The notes: generated by a model from the letters alone, not told the origin. A DNA stretch of 28,371 nt from an uncultured Arcobacteraceae bacterium (GCA_964022095.1 CAXHZO010000025.1:1-28371), one strand, 5' to 3'. Shown: positions 1-28,371, counted from the first letter of the stretch. A program made the numbers and translations.

Positions 1-562
1 TAATAGCTTGTGCTTTTTGTTCTGGTGTCATCTCTTGCCAGTCTTTTAGTTTTTGTTCGTAGTTTTCAATTCTTCCATTTTTAAATAGTTCAATAATCTC
101 ATCTTTGTTATTCATAGGAATAGAATCACCATCAAAAGAGCTTTTATGAATATTAGCGATTTCTAAAGCTTTGAATGTAAAATCAACACAACTATTAGTA
201 AAAGGTTCATAGTTACCATCTTTTAAAACTGAACCTTTTTTAAAGCCATGCTGTTCTGATAATTGAGGATTCTCTTTATCTCCAAAATCTTTTAAAATCT
301 CAAATTGCTCTTTAGTGATTTCTTTCCTTTTAGAAGAGAAAGCAGGGCTTCCTAAATAAGAAGTACTGTCATCTTTTACAATACCTCTTGCGGTATACCC
401 TGAATCAATAGGTTTATTAATAGTATTTCCAATAGAGTCTTCTATGTGTAATTGATACCACATGTGACCGGCAATAGATTTTGTGATGTTATTTTCTCCA
501 CTAGCTTTATAATCAGTTCCCATTGATTCTATGTGTACTTGTATATAATATTTTTCTTCCAT
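1..562 (-). CDS. Putative toxin/effector with permuted papain-like (His...Asn-x-Cys) N-terminal domain; 3' end runs off the window
   Basis: Not in the ORF track. I translated it from ATG 562 (RBS AAGGGA upstream): MEEKYYIQVHIESMGTDY...SIAGHMWYQL...EITKEQFEILKDFG...YEPFTNSCVDFTFKAL..., open to base 1. GH then NxC order fits permuted NlpC/P60/papain-like enzymes. Lies directly downstream of a putative immunity gene. Confidence 0.75.
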   Translation of the reverse strand, partial: MEEKYYIQVHIESMGTDYKASGENNITKSIAGHMWYQLHIEDSIGNTINKPIDSGYTARGIVKDDSTSYLGSPAFSSKRKEITKEQFEILKDFGDKENPQLSEQHGFKKGSVLKDGNYEPFTNSCVDFTFKALEIANIHKSSFDGDSIPMNNKDEIIELFKNGRIENYEQKLKDWQEMTPEQKAQAI

Positions 563-1147
563 AATATTTCCCTTATATTAGTGCTTAGTACTTCCTTCTT
601 CAATTTCAAATCTAGTTTTAAAATATTTAGGAAGTTGAACATCTTGTAGACTTTCTATTTTTACATGATAACTTCTATATTGCTGTAATTCAGCTGACAT
701 TATAAGATCAGGACTGTCATAGAGAGGCAGAATTACAATCTCTTCAATTTTATCTTTTGTATTTGTATTACGTTTTTTTGAAGGCGTCCAGTACTCAATC
801 TCTTTACTAGCCCATCCAAGAGGAGTAAGTGTTATTTTAAATTTAAAATATTGATTCTTTTCAGGTGGTATTGGTTTATAATTTTCATCTTTCCCTGTTC
901 TTATTTTTTCACTTTCTATATTAGTTTCTTCTTTATGACCTCTTTGGGCATATACTGCAAAATCAAAATAAATCCAAGAACCAAAGATATTAACAGGAAC
1001 AATAAACTCAGTTTCATAAGTAGTACCTTTTTTAGAAAAGTCTAGGTCAGATGTATTTGGTATATTTGTATAGCTAGGCTGACAACCTCTGTAAGCTAAA
1101 GCTAAAACTATAGTGATAGTTCCTAATATGTAATATCTTAGTTTCAT
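563..1147. repeat. Repeat C copy 1 (immunity gene plus downstream RBS spacer)
   Basis: Long identical blocks shared with 5071-5667, including the spacer aatatttcccttata, interrupted by diverged patches. Confidence 0.9.
578..1147 (-). CDS. Membrane-anchored/exported putative immunity protein (DUF5625-like), cognate to the 1-562 effector
   Basis: 189 aa; hydrophobic N-terminus followed by Cys (LAYRGC); paralog of 5086-5667; ends 15 bp upstream of the effector start. The DUF5625 resemblance is from memory of the LDxSKxG...ETEF and YxVxIESLQD pattern. Confidence 0.6.
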   Translation of the reverse strand: MKLRYYILGTITIVLALAYRGCQPSYTNIPNTSDLDFSKKGTTYETEFIVPVNIFGSWIYFDFAVYAQRGHKEETNIESEKIRTGKDENYKPIPPEKNQYFKFKITLTPLGWASKEIEYWTPSKKRNTNTKDKIEEIVILPLYDSPDLIMSAELQQYRSYHVKIESLQDVQLPKYFKTRFEIEEGSTKH

Positions 1148-1162
1148 ATAAATTTTCCTTTC

Positions 1163-1612
1163 TTAACCCATAGCCTGAATACTAGAGTTAGAATTGTTGT
1201 TATTGTTGAAGAAACTTTCAGAAAAAGAGGGCTTGTATTCTTCTTGTTTGTTAAAAGAGTCTAAATTAAAATTAGGATTAATTTGAATACTAAATATGTC
1301 AGTAGAAGATAAAGAATTGCCTTCGTTAGAAATAACCTTATCTTGATACTGAGAAATAAATTGTTTGCAATAGTTATTTTCAAAAGAACTAGACAAATCA
1401 GTACTAGATAATAAAGTAAGCTTGTCTTGTGTAGTATCTAAAGAATTGATTTGAGTAAAAAGATTATTTATATTTTCTAATTTTTCTTCTTTGTTAGATT
1501 CAAACTCTTTTATATATCTGATCATTATATCTTTTAGATTTTCTATCCCTTGATTATTTGATGCAGACTGGCTATTTAGGTCTAGTTGCTCAGCTGCTTC
1601 AAATGTAGCATC
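1163..1612. repeat. Repeat A copy 1 (shared effector C-terminal domain)
   Basis: Matches 24345-24800: near-identical over about 1222-1504, weaker but alignable out to tgtagcatc at 1612. Confidence 0.92.
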
Positions 1613-25858: not shown

Positions 25859-25940
25859 GATTTCCCCTTTTAAATAATATAGAAAGATTTTATCTTATTA
25901 AATATTTATTTATTATTAAAAAATCAGAAAAAAAATTATT

Positions 25941-27893
25941 TTAGTTCATGCTTTGGGTACTATTATTTTGAATTGTATTTGATTGTAAATACATGTAAGA
26001 ATTTTCATATTCTGTATTTTTAACTGAATTTAATGATTCGTAATGATTCTCAATTATGTCATTCTTCTTATTATTTAATATATCTTTTGCATATTCATTG
26101 GAAATAATAGTATTTAAATCTAAATTATTTAAGGCTTTAATTTTATCATCTAAGTTTTTTATTTCTTTGATATTCTCTAATGTTTTTTTGAACTCTTTTA
26201 CCTCTTCTTCTTTATTTGTGTTTTCTATAAATTTAATTCCAAAGCTTTCAAAGTTATCAAGTTTTTCGTCAAAACTGTTTTCTTGTTTTTGTAGTACCTC
26301 TTTGACATCATTTATATTATATTCAATAGATTTATTATCATTAGTATTAAATACAAAGTTTTCTATTTGAGTTCTTTCATTGTCCCAATCTTTTATAATT
26401 ATATTACCATTGTTTTGTAAATTACTCGTATCTTGGATATTTATTATTAAATCATTGTCTTTTTTAGTAAAAGTAAGCATATCTGGTGTTATATTATTGT
26501 GAAATTCTATTGTGTCATTACCACTTCCATATTTGTTTATTGGACTTGCTCCTTCATATATTATATCTTTGCCATCTCCTAATTTATAATAATATATATC
26601 ATCTCCTCTACCACCATTTAGATAATCATTTCCTTTGTTTCCTTCTAAATAATCGTTTTGATTTCCAGTAGTTATAATGTCATTTTTTAGAGATCCATAT
26701 ATTGTATCTTCACTTATTTTTCCAAAGCTTGAGATAAATTTACCTTTGTCTTCTTCATAATATTTTGCATCATCAATTTTGATATGTCTATTATCATCAC
26801 TTATATCTTCTGCAAAGTTTATATTTGAACTTTGTATAGAAGGGTACATATCATATTTCACTAGAGTATTAAATCTTTCAAGTTTATCTTCTAGAAACTT
26901 TTGTGAATAGTTTTCTGGATTTAATAATCCATTATCAGAAGCTTTTTGAATAGAACTTTCATCTTTATCTGTTAAAAAAGCAATATTATTTAGAACTGCA
27001 TACATAGTATATTTATCTTCTGAATTTTTTAGATAGTCCAATGAAATAGCTTTATTCTCTTTATTTAGATAATTTTCAATTAATTGATATTTTTCTCCAT
27101 TGATGTTAAAAAATAATTTTTCATTTTCTTTTAAAGGAACATACTTTAAAAACTCTTTTATATTTTCTTCTGTGGCACCTTGTGTAAAAGTGTATGCGTT
27201 TTCAGATCTTTCATAATTATACTCAATCATTCCAGTATCACTTTGAGCAATAACTGTATAAGAATCATTAGTCTCTTTTAATTCACTTATTGATTGATTT
27301 TTATCTTCATTTGTAAAGTGATGTTTTAAAACACTATCAACTTTTCCACTTGATAAAAAAACAGCATCGTTTGTAATTGGATTTTTCATGATACAAATAT
27401 TTGGACCAACTGTATTATCCCAAATTCCATCTACTTTTGAAGAGACTTTATTTCCCACAAAAAAATCTACAGTCACAGCTCCTGCTGGACCAGATATAAC
27501 AGCAGCACCACTTCCTGCTATGGCACCTGATATATGTGCTGAAAAGAATTTTGTTACTTCTTTTGAACTTTGTTGTAACTTACTAGTTTTAGATACAAGT
27601 TTATAGTCTTTATCTAAGTTTAGTTTTAAAGCTTGCTCTGAGCCTATTAAATTTGTAGATAAATCTAAAGCATTGTTTTTACCATCAGTATATTTTTGAT
27701 AAATTTTTAAGCCATCATCTAAATCTATATTTTTATTTTTTGTAACCATACTTAAAGCTATATTAGAAGCTAAAATAGAGTAATCAGATATATTCGCATC
27801 TTCAATTCCACCATCAGGTAAAAACTCTTTTAATGTATTAGGATTAATAACTTCATTGTAGTTTACTGATTTACTTCCATTTAGTTGGCTCAC
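25941..27893 (-). CDS. Putative effector: unknown/Gly-rich N-terminal domain + RTX and haemolysin-type Ca-binding region + divergent copy of the conserved C-terminal domain
   Basis: SGAIAGSGAAVISGPAGAV; RTX repeats GNKGNDYLN and GGRGDDIYY, then GDGKDII...GNDTIEF...NDLIINI...QIENFVF; the tail aligns with repeat A. GTG start overlaps the ankyrin gene stop. Confidence 0.72.
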   Translation of the reverse strand: MSQLNGSKSVNYNEVINPNTLKEFLPDGGIEDANISDYSILASNIALSMVTKNKNIDLDDGLKIYQKYTDGKNNALDLSTNLIGSEQALKLNLDKDYKLVSKTSKLQQSSKEVTKFFSAHISGAIAGSGAAVISGPAGAVTVDFFVGNKVSSKVDGIWDNTVGPNICIMKNPITNDAVFLSSGKVDSVLKHHFTNEDKNQSISELKETNDSYTVIAQSDTGMIEYNYERSENAYTFTQGATEENIKEFLKYVPLKENEKLFFNINGEKYQLIENYLNKENKAISLDYLKNSEDKYTMYAVLNNIAFLTDKDESSIQKASDNGLLNPENYSQKFLEDKLERFNTLVKYDMYPSIQSSNINFAEDISDDNRHIKIDDAKYYEEDKGKFISSFGKISEDTIYGSLKNDIITTGNQNDYLEGNKGNDYLNGGRGDDIYYYKLGDGKDIIYEGASPINKYGSGNDTIEFHNNITPDMLTFTKKDNDLIINIQDTSNLQNNGNIIIKDWDNERTQIENFVFNTNDNKSIEYNINDVKEVLQKQENSFDEKLDNFESFGIKFIENTNKEEEVKEFKKTLENIKEIKNLDDKIKALNNLDLNTIISNEYAKDILNNKKNDIIENHYESLNSVKNTEYENSYMYLQSNTIQNNSTQSMN

Positions 27894-28371
27894 TTATTAT
27901 CCTTTTTATCCTTAATATATTTTACTCTTTCATTATAAAGCATGAATCTAGCTCCGTATTTTTCTAATAGCCTTATTGTTCTTTCCATGCTTTTTGGTAT
28001 GTTCTTATATTTACCTGTTCCTAGTCTATCTATTTTAAAATTATCTGGATAATCTTTTTTATATTTATCTGCTAGACATAAAGTTAGATGTTCATATATA
28101 TTAGTTATCCCAGTATACTCATTAACATCAACCTTAGGAGATTTAAGTAGTAGCTCTGTTATTTCATATCTTTCATTACATACACTACCCCATAATGCAG
28201 GTTTACCTTCTAATGCTTCTTCTGTTGGGTCAGTAAAAGTTGCTGCATAGTGATACCTTGCTACAAACCTAGTATTATTAGGATTAACACCCCTTTGAAG
28301 TAACATATCAACTACCTCAATTGAATTATTCTTTATTGCATAATATAAAGGTGTTTTTCTTTGTCTATCTA
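27890..28371 (-). CDS. Ankyrin-repeat protein (5' end outside the window), putative immunity protein
   Basis: The frame stays open upstream of the tracked ATG: DRQRKTPLYYAIKNNSIEVVDMLLQRGVNPN is a canonical ankyrin repeat; second repeat GKPALWGSV...ITELLLKSPKVDVN; GTGA overlap with the effector. Confidence 0.85.
   Translation of the reverse strand, partial: DRQRKTPLYYAIKNNSIEVVDMLLQRGVNPNNTRFVARYHYAATFTDPTEEALEGKPALWGSVCNERYEITELLLKSPKVDVNEYTGITNIYEHLTLCLADKYKKDYPDNFKIDRLGTGKYKNIPKSMERTIRLLEKYGARFMLYNERVKYIKDKKDNK

What the first reader, a model, noticed from the sequence alone, without database searches (positions are those of the whole stretch)
1..28371. Candidate interbacterial-killing T4SS flanked on both sides by immunity-toxin arrays
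Seen: a co-oriented divergent virB-like cluster (7047-24332) bracketed by five upstream-small-gene/downstream-toxin-like pairs: ankyrin/RTX hybrid, lipoprotein/lysozyme-like, two TM-protein/glycine-zipper pairs, and DUF5625-like/papain-like. Orphan immunity genes are also present. None of the toxins has a signal peptide, and most partner locations (membrane, periplasm) fit the predicted toxin targets. Known: Xanthomonas/Stenotrophomonas X-T4SS use the same logic (immunity upstream, variable N-terminal toxin, constant C-terminal signal). Inference: an independently built killing T4SS in an Arcobacter-like Campylobacterota lineage, which I do not know to have been described.
Basis: partly seen in the sequence, partly recalled or inferred. 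Interest (0 to 1): 0.93.

Follow-up and report, generated by a model that had tools for sequence, protein, structure and literature searches.

The report
Toxin-armed type IV secretion island
A marine Arcobacter-family bacterium carries a chromosomal island in which a very divergent type IV secretion machine is packed together with at least seven toxin genes that share one C-terminal tag, each preceded by a likely immunity gene, which looks like a new, independently evolved contact weapon against other bacteria, though no killing has been shown.

Summary
The architecture is real. The window is one whole contig inside a chromosomal island of at least 40 kb, with all genes co-directional. Window 7047-24332 encodes a highly divergent T4SS. 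Its 795-aa ATPase folds as a full-length VirB4: the top 13 listed PDB matches are all R388 TrwK. The coupling protein lies on the neighbouring contig and is closest to Legionella DotL. Seven toxin candidates lack signal peptides and follow small lipoprotein, membrane or exported partner genes. Six of them end in one shared module of about 120 aa, predicted as a helical bundle plus a polar disordered tail. Across 1.84 billion proteins, 17 of 19 profile hits carry the module at the extreme C-terminus, on about eight N-terminal domain types. In close relatives the coupling-protein gene abuts the core, so these toxin cassettes are insertions inside the T4SS gene string. Distant relatives are plasmid/ICE-like and lack the toxins. 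The logic mirrors Xanthomonas X-T4SS/XVIPCD, without detectable homology. Killing is not shown. RTX repeats, an hlyD remnant, two T1SS loci and two relaxase islets keep rivals open. "Lysozyme-like" and "DUF5625-like" are unsupported; "papain-like" is moderately supported.

The parts
27890..28371 (-). Ankyrin-repeat protein; its 5' end is cut by the contig end. It is the candidate partner of rtx650, but its role is uncertain.
   Evidence: Pfam Ank 36 bits. It overlaps the rtx650 start by 4 nt. A 76% identical paralog on C29 precedes p279/p268/Tle1-like.
25941..27893 (-). rtx650: toxin candidate with an unknown N-terminal domain, RTX repeats and a divergent copy of the shared C-terminal module (25944-26294).
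   Evidence: HemolysinCabind 52 bits. Module alignments; the family-model search scores this copy at E 1.1e-42, noting that it was one of the sequences the model was built from. No signal peptide.
25436..25858 (-). lipo140: predicted lipoprotein and immunity candidate for lys368.
   Evidence: Signal peptide plus FTGC lipobox. It overlaps lys368 by 16 nt.
24345..25451 (-). lys368: toxin candidate with a ~200-aa N-terminal domain of unknown fold, linked to peptidoglycan by domain fusions, plus the shared module (24348-24725).
   Evidence: Relatives are fused to GH108+PG_binding_3+LysM, to LysM, or to a pap-type domain. Invariant residues are E29, Q55, D57 and D154-Y-H-N-Q158. There is no PDB sequence hit. 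It ends 12 nt before the first T4SS core gene.
24024..24332 (-). tm102: small membrane protein and first core gene. It occupies a VirB3-like position, which is inference only.
   Evidence: One TM segment. 71% identical ortholog in L038, located between the T4CP and sp105.
23710..24027 (-). sp105: small exported coiled-coil protein, paralog of p154.
   Evidence: Signal peptide; 34% identical to p154.
22565..23698 (-). Classic-clade AAA+ ATPase conserved throughout the T4SS family.
   Evidence: Pfam AAA 70 bits. Orthologs at 82-83% in L038/L039 and 46% in G193/G059.
21975..22469 (-). tm164: polytopic membrane protein of the core.
   Evidence: Three TM segments; orthologs in L038 and L039.
21226..21978 (-). 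p250: exported protein, weakly VirB9/TraO-like.
   Evidence: The top hit of the family profile A5 against PDB is TraO of pKM101 (2ypw), E 0.003. Signal peptide. Conserved in all relatives examined.
17009..21217 (-). Six conserved envelope proteins of the core: p217 (bitopic), p260, lipo99 (lipoprotein), p343, p211 and p253 (bitopic).
   Evidence: Signal peptides, lipobox and TM segments. Orthologs are colinear in L038/L039 and present in G193/G059. No family or PDB sequence hits.
16428..17009 (-). Lytic transglycosylase (VirB1-like).
   Evidence: Pfam SLT 49 bits against a cut-off of 21. Weak NCBIfam VirB1 and IagB hits.
15487..16425 (-). p312: paralog of the N-terminal domain of the VirB4 ATPase, without the ATPase domain.
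   Evidence: 30% identity over 347 aa to VirB4 residues 2-344. Orthologs in L038 and L039.
13103..15490 (-). VirB4-family ATPase, the signature T4SS protein.
   Evidence: AF2 model with pLDDT 72. Foldseek PDB ranks 1-13 are all TrwK/VirB4 of R388, E down to 1.2e-17. Walker A motif APTGSGKS.
12400..13029 (-). tm209: polytopic membrane protein of the core.
   Evidence: Four TM segments; orthologs in relatives.
11948..12364 (-). Pilin-like protein (VirB2-like topology).
   Evidence: Pfam T4SS_pilin E 6e-4, 20 bits, below the cut-off of 26.6. Signal peptide plus two hydrophobic segments.
9359..11990 (-). p154, p363, p129, p114 and p123: small exported or coiled-coil proteins of the core.
   Evidence: Colinear orthologs in L038 and L039. 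No family hits.
7047..9356 (-). b6_769: large polytopic membrane protein and last core gene (VirB6/TraG-like position, inferred).
   Evidence: Six hydrophobic segments. Orthologs at 27-28% in G193/G059 and 49-58% in L038/L039. No family hit.
6432..6991 (-). p133 (6590-6991), an exported protein, followed by the only convincing intrinsic terminator of the window (within 6432-6589).
   Evidence: A 12-bp stem followed by U6. A p133 homolog sits next to an orphan module ORF in G475.
5673..6431 (-). p252: exported protein of unknown role.
   Evidence: Signal peptide. No family hit above cut-off.
5086..5667 (-). p193: orphan copy of the p189 partner gene.
   Evidence: 77% identical to p189; 87% DNA identity. 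No toxin gene follows it.
4730..5085 (-). Pseudogene remnant of the 3' end of an hlyD (type I secretion MFP) gene.
   Evidence: TIGR01843 fragments covering model positions 304-349 and 374-419 (E 1e-6 and 8e-8). The frames are interrupted by stops.
4226..4729 (-). tm167: 2-TM partner (immunity candidate) of gz418.
   Evidence: Two TM segments. Overlaps gz418 by 23 nt.
2992..4248 (-). gz418: glycine-rich membrane-active toxin candidate with RTX repeats and no shared module. It is probably a displaced type-I-style cassette.
   Evidence: HemolysinCabind 29 bits; Gly-zipper 18 bits, below cut-off. 96.7% DNA identity over 459 bp with gz467.
2553..3020 (-). tm155: 2-TM partner (immunity candidate) of gz467.
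   Evidence: Two TM segments. Overlaps gz467 by 14 nt.
1163..2566 (-). gz467: glycine-rich toxin candidate carrying the shared module (1166-1543).
   Evidence: Gly-zipper 18 bits, below cut-off. Its module is 88% identical in DNA to that of lys368. P0026 is a glycine-zipper + module protein from another organism.
578..1147 (-). p189: exported partner (immunity candidate) of the pap-type toxin.
   Evidence: Signal peptide; 15 nt upstream of the toxin gene. No DUF5625 hit.
2..562 (-). pap187: papain-like (TseH-like) toxin candidate; its 3' end is cut by the contig end. The full-length form (P0016, 325 aa) carries the module.
   Evidence: P0016 is identical over the window part and ends in the module. 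VIA-align gives TseH (6v98) at Z 8.3, rmsd 3.6 A, 116 aa aligned, plus four more rows for the same domain. His (GHMW) and Cys (NSC) are conserved.

Best explanation
The window is the middle of a chromosomal island of at least 40 kb. The island encodes a very divergent T4SS: a VirB4 ATPase, a DotL-like coupling protein, an AAA+ ATPase, an SLT, a pilin-like protein, a VirB9-like protein and about 15 lineage-specific envelope proteins. This machine descends from a family of plasmid/ICE transfer systems of Campylobacterota.

In this lineage the machine has been re-purposed, or co-opted, to deliver protein toxins into neighbouring bacteria. At least seven toxin genes lie inside and beside the T4SS gene string: lipase-like, Tle1-like phospholipase, TseH/papain-like, a peptidoglycan-associated domain, glycine-rich membrane-active proteins and an RTX hybrid. 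Each lacks a signal peptide. Each follows a small lipoprotein, membrane or periplasmic protein that would neutralise it in the producer.

Six of the seven end in the same module of about 120 aa, a predicted four-helix bundle with a disordered Asn/Ser/Gln-rich tail ending ...IQxM[SG]. I infer that this module is the recognition and translocation signal read by the coupling protein or its partner p266.

Shown: the gene content, the VirB4 fold, T4CP family membership, the shared module and its terminal position, the island's boundaries, and the insertion of cassettes between the T4CP gene and the core. Inferred: secretion through this T4SS, the signal role of the module, toxicity, immunity, and bacteria as the targets.
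For: (1) Machine. The VirB4 fold is confirmed. The T4CP passes Pfam cut-offs for TraG-D_C (40 bits against 22) and TrwB_AAD_bind (24.4 against 20.5), and its best PDB relative is IcmO/DotL at E 1.4e-19. SLT passes its cut-off and there is a weak VirB9/TraO hit.

(2) One island. In the complete same-genus genome G376 the C4 and C29 flanks lie about 900 bp apart. All island genes are co-directional.

(3) Cassettes sit inside the T4SS string. In L038 (24 of 24 ORFs colinear) and L039 (24 of 26) the order is p266-T4CP-(tm102-sp105)-AAA...VirB6-like, with the T4CP abutting the core. Here the partner gene imm233a starts 3 nt after the T4CP stop, and lys368 ends 12 nt before tm102.

(4) Module. There are five assembled copies in this genome and a sixth on the full-length pap toxin, P0016. 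Against 1.84e9 proteins, 19 hits have E<=1e-3, and 17 of them carry the module at the extreme C-terminus, on Tle1-like (3), pap-type (3), glycine-zipper (2), lipase-like (1), lys-type (1), RTX (1), unknown (4) and module-only (2) architectures. It is predicted helical at pLDDT 73-92 with a disordered tail.

(5) Toxin identities. Tle1-like scores 66 bits against a cut-off of 27. The pap domain is closest to the T6SS effector TseH at Z 8.3. The lys domain is fused to GH108, PG_binding_3 and LysM elsewhere.

(6) Localisation logic holds.

(7) No relaxase, integrase, replication or partition gene occurs in the assembled island. The 72-kb relatives have ParA, topoisomerase III, a methylase-helicase, a nuclease and TA modules, but no toxin homolog.

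(8) A second organism.
Against: There is no functional data and no RNA run.

The close relatives L038 and L039 show no toxin or module in the 17.8 and 20.1 kb available. Both contigs end at or just after the VirB6-like gene, so the downstream side is unseen.

Among the 184 genomes of the family, module and VirB4-like co-occur only in G000. G475 has an orphan module ORF without the ATPase, and G444 has a distant ATPase without the module.

Two module toxins (P0021, P0022) are from a complete NCBI Halarcobacter genome, yet no NCBI VirB4-like protein from it appeared.

rtx650 and gz418 carry RTX repeats, an hlyD remnant lies in the window, and two intact TolC-ABC(C39)-HlyD loci exist, so a type I route is possible.

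Two NikA+MOB_P relaxase islets without an MPF could be clients of the T4SS.

The downstream arrays lie beyond a terminator.

The toxin domain assignments other than Tle1-like are weak.
Confidence: 0.55

Rival explanations
1. The module-bearing toxins are type I secretion substrates. On this reading the C-terminal module is a T1SS-type C-terminal signal, the toxins leave through one of the two TolC-ABC-HlyD systems (Cdz-like surface bacteriocins), and their position next to the T4SS is a by-product of island mosaicism.
For: RTX repeats lie just ahead of the module in rtx650, and gz418 also has them. An hlyD pseudogene remnant lies directly upstream of tm167/gz418. Two complete TolC-ABC(C39-like)-HlyD loci exist in the genome. 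Glycine-zipper bacteriocins exported by a T1SS, with a membrane immunity protein, are known in Caulobacter (PMC5380434; listing and start of abstract only).
Against: Only 1 of the 6 module-bearing toxins in this genome has RTX repeats. The T1SS locus on C4 is followed by a giant Calx-beta/LapA-like adhesin, and neither T1SS locus has a toxin homolog in the assembled flank. gz467 looks like a gz418-type gene whose RTX end was replaced by the module (96.7% identical core, different 3' ends), which suggests the two tails are alternatives rather than the same thing. Cassettes are inserted between the T4CP and the T4SS core with 3-12 nt spacing.
Confidence: 0.15
2. The T4SS is still a DNA-transfer machine that mobilises the island or the two relaxase-bearing islets. 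The toxin/immunity pairs are selfish cargo or addiction modules that stabilise the island, not substrates.
For: The machine's distant relatives sit on plasmid/ICE-like 72-kb contigs with ParA, topoisomerase III, a helicase-methylase, a nuclease and TA systems. The genome holds two NikA-like + MOB_P relaxase + TrbL + HipBA islets with no MPF of their own. The genome has no other VirB4 or VirD4 Pfam match.
Against: There is no relaxase, oriT-binding protein, integrase, partition or replication gene in the assembled island, and no att-like repeats or tRNA at its ends. The toxins lack signal peptides, yet their partners are envelope proteins, a pattern that fits exported effectors rather than cytoplasmic addiction modules. 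A conserved terminal module on 8 kinds of N-terminal domain is hard to explain without a shared export step.
Confidence: 0.12
3. The T4SS does deliver the toxins, but mainly into eukaryotic grazers or hosts, as in Dot/Icm-style systems, rather than into bacteria.
For: The T4CP is closest to DotL. Phospholipase and lipase toxins can act on eukaryotic membranes. An ankyrin-repeat protein is present.
Against: Every toxin has a dedicated envelope-located partner gene, which is needed only if the toxin can harm bacteria of the producer's own kind. Two toxin domains point to peptidoglycan: the TseH-like fold and fusions with GH108, PG_binding_3 and LysM.
Confidence: 0.08
4. The island is a decaying remnant: the machine is no longer functional and the cassettes are a junkyard of recombining fragments.
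For: The island contains pseudogene and orphan pieces: the hlyD remnant, orphan p193, gz418 without the module, a second lipase fragment at the C4 end, and module-only ORFs elsewhere.
Against: All 24 L038 ORFs have intact colinear counterparts here at 38-83% identity. No frameshift was seen in the core. The module copies are kept nearly identical (88-97% DNA identity), which suggests ongoing recombination under selection.
Confidence: 0.05

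Closest known systems
Xanthomonadales X-T4SS with X-Tfe effectors, XVIPCD signal and X-Tfi immunity (PMC8740702, passages read; review PMC6536674, listing only)
   Same: Both are chromosomal T4SSs. Both have many effectors with varied N-terminal toxin domains and a conserved C-terminal domain of about 120 residues that ends in a polar, disordered tail. 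Immunity genes lie directly upstream. Small signal-only ORFs exist in both (here P0024, P0029 and the G475 orphan). Toxin classes overlap: peptidoglycan hydrolases and lipases.
   Different: The module profile shows no sequence similarity to any solved chain. The module is predicted all-helical, whereas the XVIPCD core is described as alpha-alpha-beta-beta-beta. The coupling protein is DotL-like, not VirD4-like by best match. The core components are not recognised by VirB models. The phylum is different. The module copies within one genome are nearly identical.
Pseudomonas putida IsoF kib type IVB killing system (PMC9519443, passages read)
   Same: Both are rare, horizontally acquired genomic islands. 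Both have a coupling protein of the type IVB kind. In both, effector-immunity genes lie inside the secretion gene cluster. Neither has a recognisable classical signal.
   Different: By the paper, kib has recognisable dot/icm genes and one E-I pair with a cytosolic immunity protein. Here only the T4CP resembles a Dot/Icm part, there are at least 7 toxins, the partners are envelope proteins, and a shared terminal module exists.
Plasmid/ICE-borne T4SS of enterohepatic Helicobacter, Campylobacter majalis and Campylobacteraceae MAGs (for example the 71-kb H. turcicus contig, which is G059:C2)
   Same: It is the homologous machine. In G193:C2, 18 island proteins have matches, including VirB4 (~38%), T4CP (47-50%), AAA+ (46%), SLT, p250, p343, p211, p253 and the VirB6-like protein.
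   Different: Those elements carry ParA, topoisomerase III, a 2,631-aa methylase/SNF2 helicase, a UvrD-like helicase, a nuclease and TA modules, and none of the toxins or the module. Their gene order is rearranged. On the quick VirB4 tree they form a separate branch.
Caulobacter Cdz: T1SS-exported glycine-zipper contact bacteriocins (PMC5380434, listing and start of abstract only)
   Same: Both have glycine-rich membrane-active toxin candidates paired with small multi-TM partner genes. Here RTX repeats and an hlyD remnant lie beside one pair.
   Different: No functional ABC/MFP genes adjoin the pairs. The second copy (gz467) carries the module in place of the RTX end. The Pfam glycine-zipper scores are below the cut-off.
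T6SS effector families Tle1 (DUF2235) and TseH
   Same: The toxin domains are of these kinds: PF09994 at 66-96 bits in P0015, P0022 and P0027, and a TseH-like fold at Z 8.3.
   Different: There is no T6SS context. The domains are joined to the C-terminal module instead of to PAAR, VgrG or adaptor-dependent delivery.

Membership tests
Type IV secretion system (any type) | A VirB4-family ATPase | tested here: met
   AF2 model. Foldseek PDB ranks 1-13 are all TrwK/VirB4 of R388, full length, E 1.2e-17 to 1.5e-12, and rank ahead of HerA. Sequence models alone fail.
Type IV secretion system (any type) | A type IV coupling protein (VirD4/TraD/DotL family) | tested here: met
   C4:3109-5004, outside the window but in the same island. 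TraG-D_C 40 bits against 22, and TrwB_AAD_bind 24.4 against 20.5. IcmO/DotL at E 1.4e-19.
Type IV secretion system (any type) | Envelope-spanning core (VirB6-10 analogues), pilin and lytic transglycosylase | tested here: inconclusive
   SLT is met. The pilin hit is below cut-off. The VirB9/TraO match has E 0.003. The VirB6-, VirB8- and VirB10-like roles rest on topology and position only. There are no PDB sequence hits for the p253 and p343 families.
X-T4SS / X-Tfe effectors | C-terminal XVIPCD domain (conserved motifs, alpha-alpha-beta-beta-beta core, Gln-rich tail) | tested here: not met
   The module profile A7 against all PDB chain sequences at E<=10 gave only coiled-coil noise. The module is predicted all-helical, against the fold described in PMC8740702. 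I did not verify that an XVIPCD entry is in the PDB copy. The functional analogy remains.
X-T4SS / X-Tfe effectors | Immunity gene directly upstream of each effector; effectors lack Sec signals | tested here: met
   Gene order and overlaps; the signal-peptide and TM heuristic. Immunity function itself was not tested.
Type IVB (Dot/Icm, IncI, kib) systems | DotL-type coupling protein plus recognisable Dot/Icm or Tra(I) core genes (DotB, DotC/D/H/G/F, DotI, IcmS/W and others) | tested here: inconclusive
   Only the T4CP resembles a type IVB part. No Pfam or NCBIfam Dot/Icm model hits any of the 35 window ORFs at E<=0.01, apart from a 17.5-bit ankyrin-repeat match to the effector model AnkH/LegA3 (cut-off 600). 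The VirB4 model matches TrwK (type IVA) best. MPF typing with CONJScan was not available.
Conjugative element (plasmid or ICE) | Relaxase with the MPF and T4CP, plus integration, replication or partition functions | tested here: not met
   None is present in the assembled island, and there are no att repeats or tRNA at its ends. Two MOB_P relaxases lie elsewhere in the genome, on C10 and C12. TrwC, TraI_2 and MobA_MobL are absent. Unassembled gaps remain.
Type I secretion substrates / Cdz-like bacteriocins | RTX repeats with a C-terminal signal and an adjacent ABC-MFP exporter | tested here: inconclusive
   RTX repeats occur in rtx650 and gz418 only. The adjacent hlyD is a pseudogene remnant. 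Intact T1SS loci lie elsewhere in the genome.
Tle1-like phospholipase effectors (PF09994) | Match to the catalytic-domain model above the cut-off | tested here: met
   C29:2149-3930 scores 66 bits against 27. P0022 scores 86 bits and P0027 96 bits. This gene lies outside the window, in the same island.
Papain-like / NlpC-P60-type hydrolases (TseH-like) | Papain-like fold with a Cys/His catalytic pair | tested here: inconclusive
   VIA-align gives TseH (6v98) at Z 8.3, rmsd 3.6 A, 116 aa, and four further rows for the same domain (2wp7, 3kw0, 2if6, 6r99; Z 5.3-6.8). I recall all of these as papain-like folds. Z is near the tool's typical background of 7-8. Foldseek found nothing. His and Cys are conserved in 4 of 4 full-length relatives.
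Lysozyme / lytic transglycosylase (claimed for lys368) | Similarity to a known muramidase or transglycosylase family | tested here: not met
   No Pfam hit and no PDB hit, either by sequence or by family profile. In P0037 the GH108 domain is a separate N-terminal domain (residues 9-95), not the lys368-type domain.
DUF5625 (claimed for p189/p193) | Match to the Pfam model | tested here: not met
   There are 0 Pfam families at E<=0.01 for both proteins.

The most novel reading that the evidence does not exclude
This would be a third, independently evolved lineage of bactericidal T4SS, after the Xanthomonadales X-T4SS and the P. putida kib T4BSS, and the first in Campylobacterota. It is built on a previously unclassified MPF type: VirB4, a DotL-like T4CP and an AAA+ ATPase, with no VirB11/DotB and most core proteins without known families. 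It uses its own secretion-signal domain, a helical module of about 120 aa with an Asn/Ser/Gln-rich tail. That domain is analogous but not homologous to XVIPCD, and it can be swapped onto toxin domains borrowed from T6SS and T1SS arsenals.
Probability: 0.45. Interest if true: 0.85.

Novelty: new variant of a known kind. Interest (0 to 1): 0.77.

Why it matters
If true, conjugation-type machines have been turned into antibacterial weapons at least three separate times, each time arriving at the same design: a variable N-terminal toxin, a constant C-terminal docking domain of about 120 aa with a disordered polar tail, and an upstream immunity gene.

The module gives a simple search handle for new effectors in marine Arcobacteraceae. 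It also offers a natural experiment on what a coupling protein needs to recognise a substrate. The pair gz418/gz467 seems to show the same toxin carrying either an RTX (type I) end or the module.

The finding also exposes a whole T4SS family, found in Helicobacter, Campylobacter and Arcobacteraceae mobile elements, that standard models do not recognise and that conjugation and secretion-system surveys therefore probably miss.

Tried and rejected
- **Family scans.** Pfam, NCBIfam and PHROGs on all 35 window ORFs left most core genes without any family.
- **Sequence searches against PDB.** For VirB4, both the single sequence and the family profile found only weak HerA/EccC hits. The p253 and p343 families found nothing. 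lys368 and pap187 gave only noise. The lys-domain family profile found no lysozyme. The module found no XVIPCD and only noise.
- **Genome-collection scan.** The first genome-contig scan, with the module alignment A1, returned 601 pattern matches and no relative.
- **Protein Atlas.** It was closed for new sequences.
- **Metagenome records.** The records behind L038 and L039 are not held, so I could not read upstream or downstream of those loci.
- **Fold searches.** Foldseek on the pap-toxin model found nothing (best E 0.09). In VIA-align the module matched only generic helical bundles at Z<=7.6, below the tool's noise level for helical proteins. These include the C-terminal domains of Legionella effectors VpdB and LegK4 at Z 5.5-6.6, which I do not count.
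- **Complex prediction** of T4CP (85-631) + p266 (75-266) + module gave no verdict (score 0.00; controls not run). It is no evidence either way.
- **Earlier findings of this scan.** Nothing by place, by sequence or by words.
- **Island ends.** No tRNA, and no direct repeat above chance.
- **Relaxase in the 72-kb relatives.** None was found by Pfam in 82 G193 ORFs, 1 further G193 ORF and 12 G059 ORFs, so conjugation there is inferred from accessory genes only.
- **Plasmid idea for the window contig.** No terminal overlap was found, and it was rejected once the chromosomal flanks were mapped.

Full report
WHAT IS THERE. The window is the whole of contig C25 (28,371 bp) of a 2.57-Mb, 31-contig genome with about 28% GC. 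All 35 sizeable ORFs are on the minus strand. They overlap or lie a few bases apart. Standard libraries recognise very little. Pfam passes its cut-off only for SLT (16428-17009), an AAA+ ATPase (22565-23698), RTX repeats (25941-27893 and 2992-4248) and ankyrin repeats (27890-28371). A T4SS_pilin match and two glycine-zipper matches fall below the cut-off. NCBIfam and PHROGs add nothing decisive. The genome has no match to the VirB4 (PF03135) or VirD4 (PF02534) Pfam models.

THE MACHINE IS A T4SS. The 795-aa protein (13103-15490) has a Walker A motif and weak HerA/FtsK-type similarity at its C-terminus. I modelled it from a 13-sequence family alignment (mean pLDDT 72). Its top 13 listed Foldseek matches in the PDB are all TrwK/VirB4 of plasmid R388. 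They are aligned over the full length, with E from 1.2e-17 to 1.5e-12, and they rank ahead of the HerA helicases, which start at 2.4e-11. The p250 family profile has the VirB9 homolog TraO as its top PDB hit, at E 0.003.

The rest of 7047-24332 encodes exported, lipoprotein, bitopic and polytopic proteins, as expected for an envelope-spanning apparatus. It also encodes a paralog of the VirB4 N-terminal domain (p312). No VirB11/DotB-type ATPase was found. A classic-clade AAA+ ATPase is conserved throughout the family instead.

It passes the Pfam cut-offs for TraG-D_C and TrwB_AAD_bind, and its best solved relative is Legionella IcmO/DotL at E 1.4e-19. I therefore call the system a divergent, unclassified T4SS whose coupling protein leans towards type IVB. 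'virB-like' is only loosely right.

ONE CHROMOSOMAL ISLAND. The truncated ORF at the window's left end shares its last 55 bases with C4, and the ankyrin gene at the right end has an 84% identical DNA copy at the start of C29. The assembly breaks fall in repeats. In the complete genome of the same genus (G376), which has neither the ATPase nor the module, the C4 flank (FlgO-like/recJ side) and the C29 flank (towards dnaE) lie about 900 bp apart, around a single DJ-1/PfpI-like gene.

So C4:1 to about 6290, the whole window and C29:1 to about 5237 form one insertion of at least 40 kb. All its genes point the same way:

p128 - p266 - T4CP - imm233 - lipase-like toxin - imm233 - second lipase fragment | gap | ankyrin - rtx650 - lipo140 - lys368 - 22 core genes - p133 - terminator - p252 - p193 - hlyD remnant - tm167 - gz418 - tm155 - gz467 - p189 - pap toxin | gap | ankyrin-2 - p279 - p268 - Tle1-like toxin - spm444.

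The order C4 -> C25 -> C29 is inferred from the flanks, not read directly. The assembled parts contain no relaxase, integrase, replication or partition gene. The island ends have no tRNA and no repeat above chance.

THE TOXINS AND THEIR SHARED MODULE. Five assembled proteins share a C-terminal module of 117-126 aa: lys368, gz467, rtx650, the C4 lipase-like protein and the C29 Tle1-like protein. Three copies are 86-92% identical and two are 28-33% identical. The database protein P0016 is identical to the window's truncated pap ORF and continues into the same module, which makes six. gz418 does not have it.

I ran a profile of the module against 1.84 billion representative proteins. It found 19 hits at E<=1e-3. 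In 17 of them the module is at the extreme C-terminus. The other two are an LRR protein and a partial match, and look spurious. The 17 comprise Tle1-like (3), pap-type (3), glycine-zipper (2), lipase-like (1), lys-type (1), RTX hybrid (1), unknown N-terminal regions (4) and module-only ORFs (2). All of them end in an Asn/Ser-rich stretch and a ...[IV]-Q-x-[MIL]-x terminus.

In the model of P0016 the module is a helical bundle (residues about 199-285, pLDDT 73-92), followed by a disordered tail. Its profile has no similarity to any solved chain. By the description in PMC8740702, the XVIPCD core is alpha-alpha-beta-beta-beta. The module is therefore an analogue of XVIPCD, not a detectable homologue.

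Toxin identities differ in strength.
- **Tle1-like** is solid: 66 bits against a cut-off of 27.
- **The pap domain** is closest to the T6SS effector TseH, at Z 8.3, rmsd 3.6 A over 116 aa. Four more rows match the same domain (DUF862 deSUMOylase, a B. cereus cysteine peptidase, YiiX and CLN5). By my recall all of these are papain-like hydrolases. The Z-scores are near the tool's background, and Foldseek found nothing. His and Cys are conserved.
- **The lys368 domain** has no known relative. It occurs elsewhere fused to GH108+PG_binding_3+LysM, to LysM and to a pap-type domain, which points to a cell-wall target.
- **The lipase-like and glycine-zipper assignments** rest on sub-threshold hits.

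None of the seven toxins has a signal peptide. Their upstream partners are a lipoprotein, 2-TM proteins or signal-peptide proteins. No Pfam hit supports 'DUF5625-like'.

LINK BETWEEN TOXINS AND MACHINE. Two metagenome contigs carry close relatives, with VirB4 at 82% and 74% identity. In L038, 24 of 24 ORFs are colinear with the island, and in L039, 24 of 26. In both, the order is p266 - T4CP - (tm102 - sp105) - AAA ... VirB6-like, with the T4CP gene abutting the core. In this genome the first partner gene starts 3 nt after the T4CP stop, and lys368 ends 12 nt before tm102. At least four partner/toxin units have therefore been inserted inside the T4SS gene string, where they should be co-transcribed with it.

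The only convincing terminator follows p133, so the downstream arrays need their own promoters. DNA repeats show active cassette shuffling: 96.7% identity over 459 bp between gz418 and gz467, 88-97% between module copies, and 87% between p189 and p193. gz467 looks like a gz418-type gene whose RTX end has been exchanged for the module.

RELATIVES.
- **Rarity.** The ATPase family is rare. It has 12 relatives among 5.8 billion clustered proteins, all unnamed or 'hypothetical'. It occurs in 7 of 400 other genomes sampled from the order, and in 1 of 183 other genomes of the family, where the copy is distant.
- **Taxa.** Named carriers at 35-40% identity are enterohepatic Helicobacter, Campylobacter majalis and Campylobacteraceae MAGs.
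- **Plasmid/ICE type.** Two 72-kb contigs (G193:C2, and G059:C2, which is an H. turcicus contig) hold matches to 18 island proteins, including the T4CP at 47-50%. They also hold ParA, topoisomerase III, a 2,631-aa methylase/SNF2 helicase, a UvrD-like helicase, a thermonuclease, a thioredoxin-like protein and several TA modules. Pfam finds no relaxase in them, and they have no homolog of any toxin or partner gene.
- **Tree.** I built a quick ML tree of 32 full-length ATPases. Partial or duplicate loci were left out: L010, L013, L014, L029, L035, L038, L039, L042, L043, L045-L047, L049 and L051-L054. The 10 Arcobacteraceae-type sequences fall on one branch (SH-aLRT 100) and the 19 Helicobacter/Campylobacter-type on another (99). 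I defined the first group by its identity to the window, so this shows separation and nothing more.
- **A second organism.** A contig length of 359,460 bp is reported for a 73% VirB4 homolog and also for four module-bearing toxins of lys, pap, Tle1 and unknown type. A second organism therefore very probably has the machine and several module toxins on one contig. I could not read that contig.

EVIDENCE AGAINST, AND RIVALS.
1. No function is shown, and no RNA run was listed.
2. L038 and L039 contain no toxin or module in the parts seen. Both contigs stop at or just after the VirB6-like gene.
3. In the 184 genomes of the family, the module and the ATPase co-occur only here. G475 has a 99-aa orphan module ORF next to a p133 homolog, among housekeeping genes. 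G444 has a distant machine without the module.
4. Two module toxins come from a complete NCBI Halarcobacter genome, yet no NCBI VirB4-like protein from it surfaced.
5. A type I route is possible. rtx650 and gz418 have RTX repeats, 4730-5085 is a stop-ridden remnant of an hlyD 3' end directly upstream of tm167/gz418, and two intact TolC-ABC(C39-like)-HlyD loci exist. One of them is followed by a giant Calx-beta/LapA-like adhesin.
6. Two small islets, on C10 and C12, carry NikA-like + MOB_P relaxase + TrbL + HipBA and defence genes but no MPF. They might use this T4SS in trans.

I weigh these as follows: T4SS-delivered antibacterial toxins 0.55, type I export 0.15, a DNA-transfer machine with selfish cargo 0.12, eukaryote-directed delivery 0.08, and a decaying remnant 0.05.

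COMPARISON AND NOVELTY. Bacteria-killing T4SSs are known from the Xanthomonadales-type X-T4SS (PMC8740702, passages; PMC6536674, listing only) and from the P. putida IsoF kib T4BSS (PMC9519443, passages). The present system has the same logic as the X-T4SS, down to signal-only small ORFs. It differs in having a non-homologous module, a DotL-like coupling protein, a core that current models do not recognise, and a different phylum.

Two full-text searches found no paper describing such a system in Arcobacter or its relatives among the listed titles and abstracts: 'Arcobacter' + 'type IV secretion system' + 'genomic island', and 'interbacterial' + 'type IV secretion' + 'Arcobacter'. That covers only the library held. 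I rate the finding a new variant of a known kind, with interest 0.77.

Noticed in passing
G000:C10 about 59.9-65.1 kb (L057) and G000:C12 about 3-10.3 kb (L058): Two mutually similar (74-81% DNA identity) mobilisable islets with NikA-like + MOB_P relaxase (Relaxase/TraI_middle/LPD7) + TrbL/VirB6-like + HipBA. One lies beside McrBC, the other beside SbcCD-like and OLD-family genes. Neither has an MPF of its own.
   Followed up: partly
window 4730-5085: A stop-ridden remnant of the 3' end of an hlyD (T1SS membrane-fusion) gene lies directly upstream of the tm167/gz418 pair. The cassette seems to have come from a type I bacteriocin locus.
   Followed up: yes
window 15487-16425: A separate gene encodes a paralog of only the N-terminal domain of the VirB4 ATPase (30% identity). 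It is conserved in L038 and L039 but not seen as a separate gene in the Helicobacter-type elements.
   Followed up: partly
window 22565-23698: A classic-clade AAA+ ATPase (Cdc48/FtsH-like) is a conserved member of this T4SS family (46% identical in Helicobacter-type elements), while no VirB11/DotB-type ATPase is present. This is unusual for a T4SS.
   Followed up: partly
L072:10247-11136 (G475:C6): A 99-aa ORF consisting only of the toxin C-terminal module (60% identical to the Tle1-like toxin's module) sits next to a homolog of window p133. Housekeeping genes surround it, and the genome has no VirB4-like gene. It looks like a remnant, or a signal-only protein.
   Followed up: partly
G000:C4:133.1-135.6 kb (L098:11164-13593): A giant Calx-beta/LapA-like adhesin gene, cut by the contig end, follows one of the two TolC-ABC(C39-like)-HlyD loci. 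The second T1SS locus begins at the very start of contig C21.
   Followed up: no
L008 (G193:C2:35717-38041): The VirB4 homolog of this plasmid-like element contains one in-frame TGA. This could be a pseudogene, a sequencing error or recoding.
   Followed up: no
L031 (CANQPY010000063.1): A 7.4-kb contig binned as an 'uncultured Clostridia bacterium' MAG carries a Helicobacter-type VirB4 that nests among Helicobacter sequences in the tree. Mis-binning is the likely explanation.
   Followed up: no
P0039 (595 aa, from a 2.78-Mb record): One protein combines a pap-type domain and a lys368-type domain in tandem without the module. The two toxin domains therefore also travel together in another delivery context.
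   Followed up: no
L006:3932-5266 (G000:C29): The last island gene encodes a polytopic membrane protein with a spermidine-synthase-like domain. It is absent from the empty site in G376, and its role is unknown.
   Followed up: no
window 23710-24027, 11526-11990 and 9359-10463: A set of small exported coiled-coil proteins (sp105 and p154 are 34% identical; p129, p114 and p123 are similar in style) is conserved in close relatives. They may be pilus-associated or periplasmic scaffold parts.
   Followed up: no
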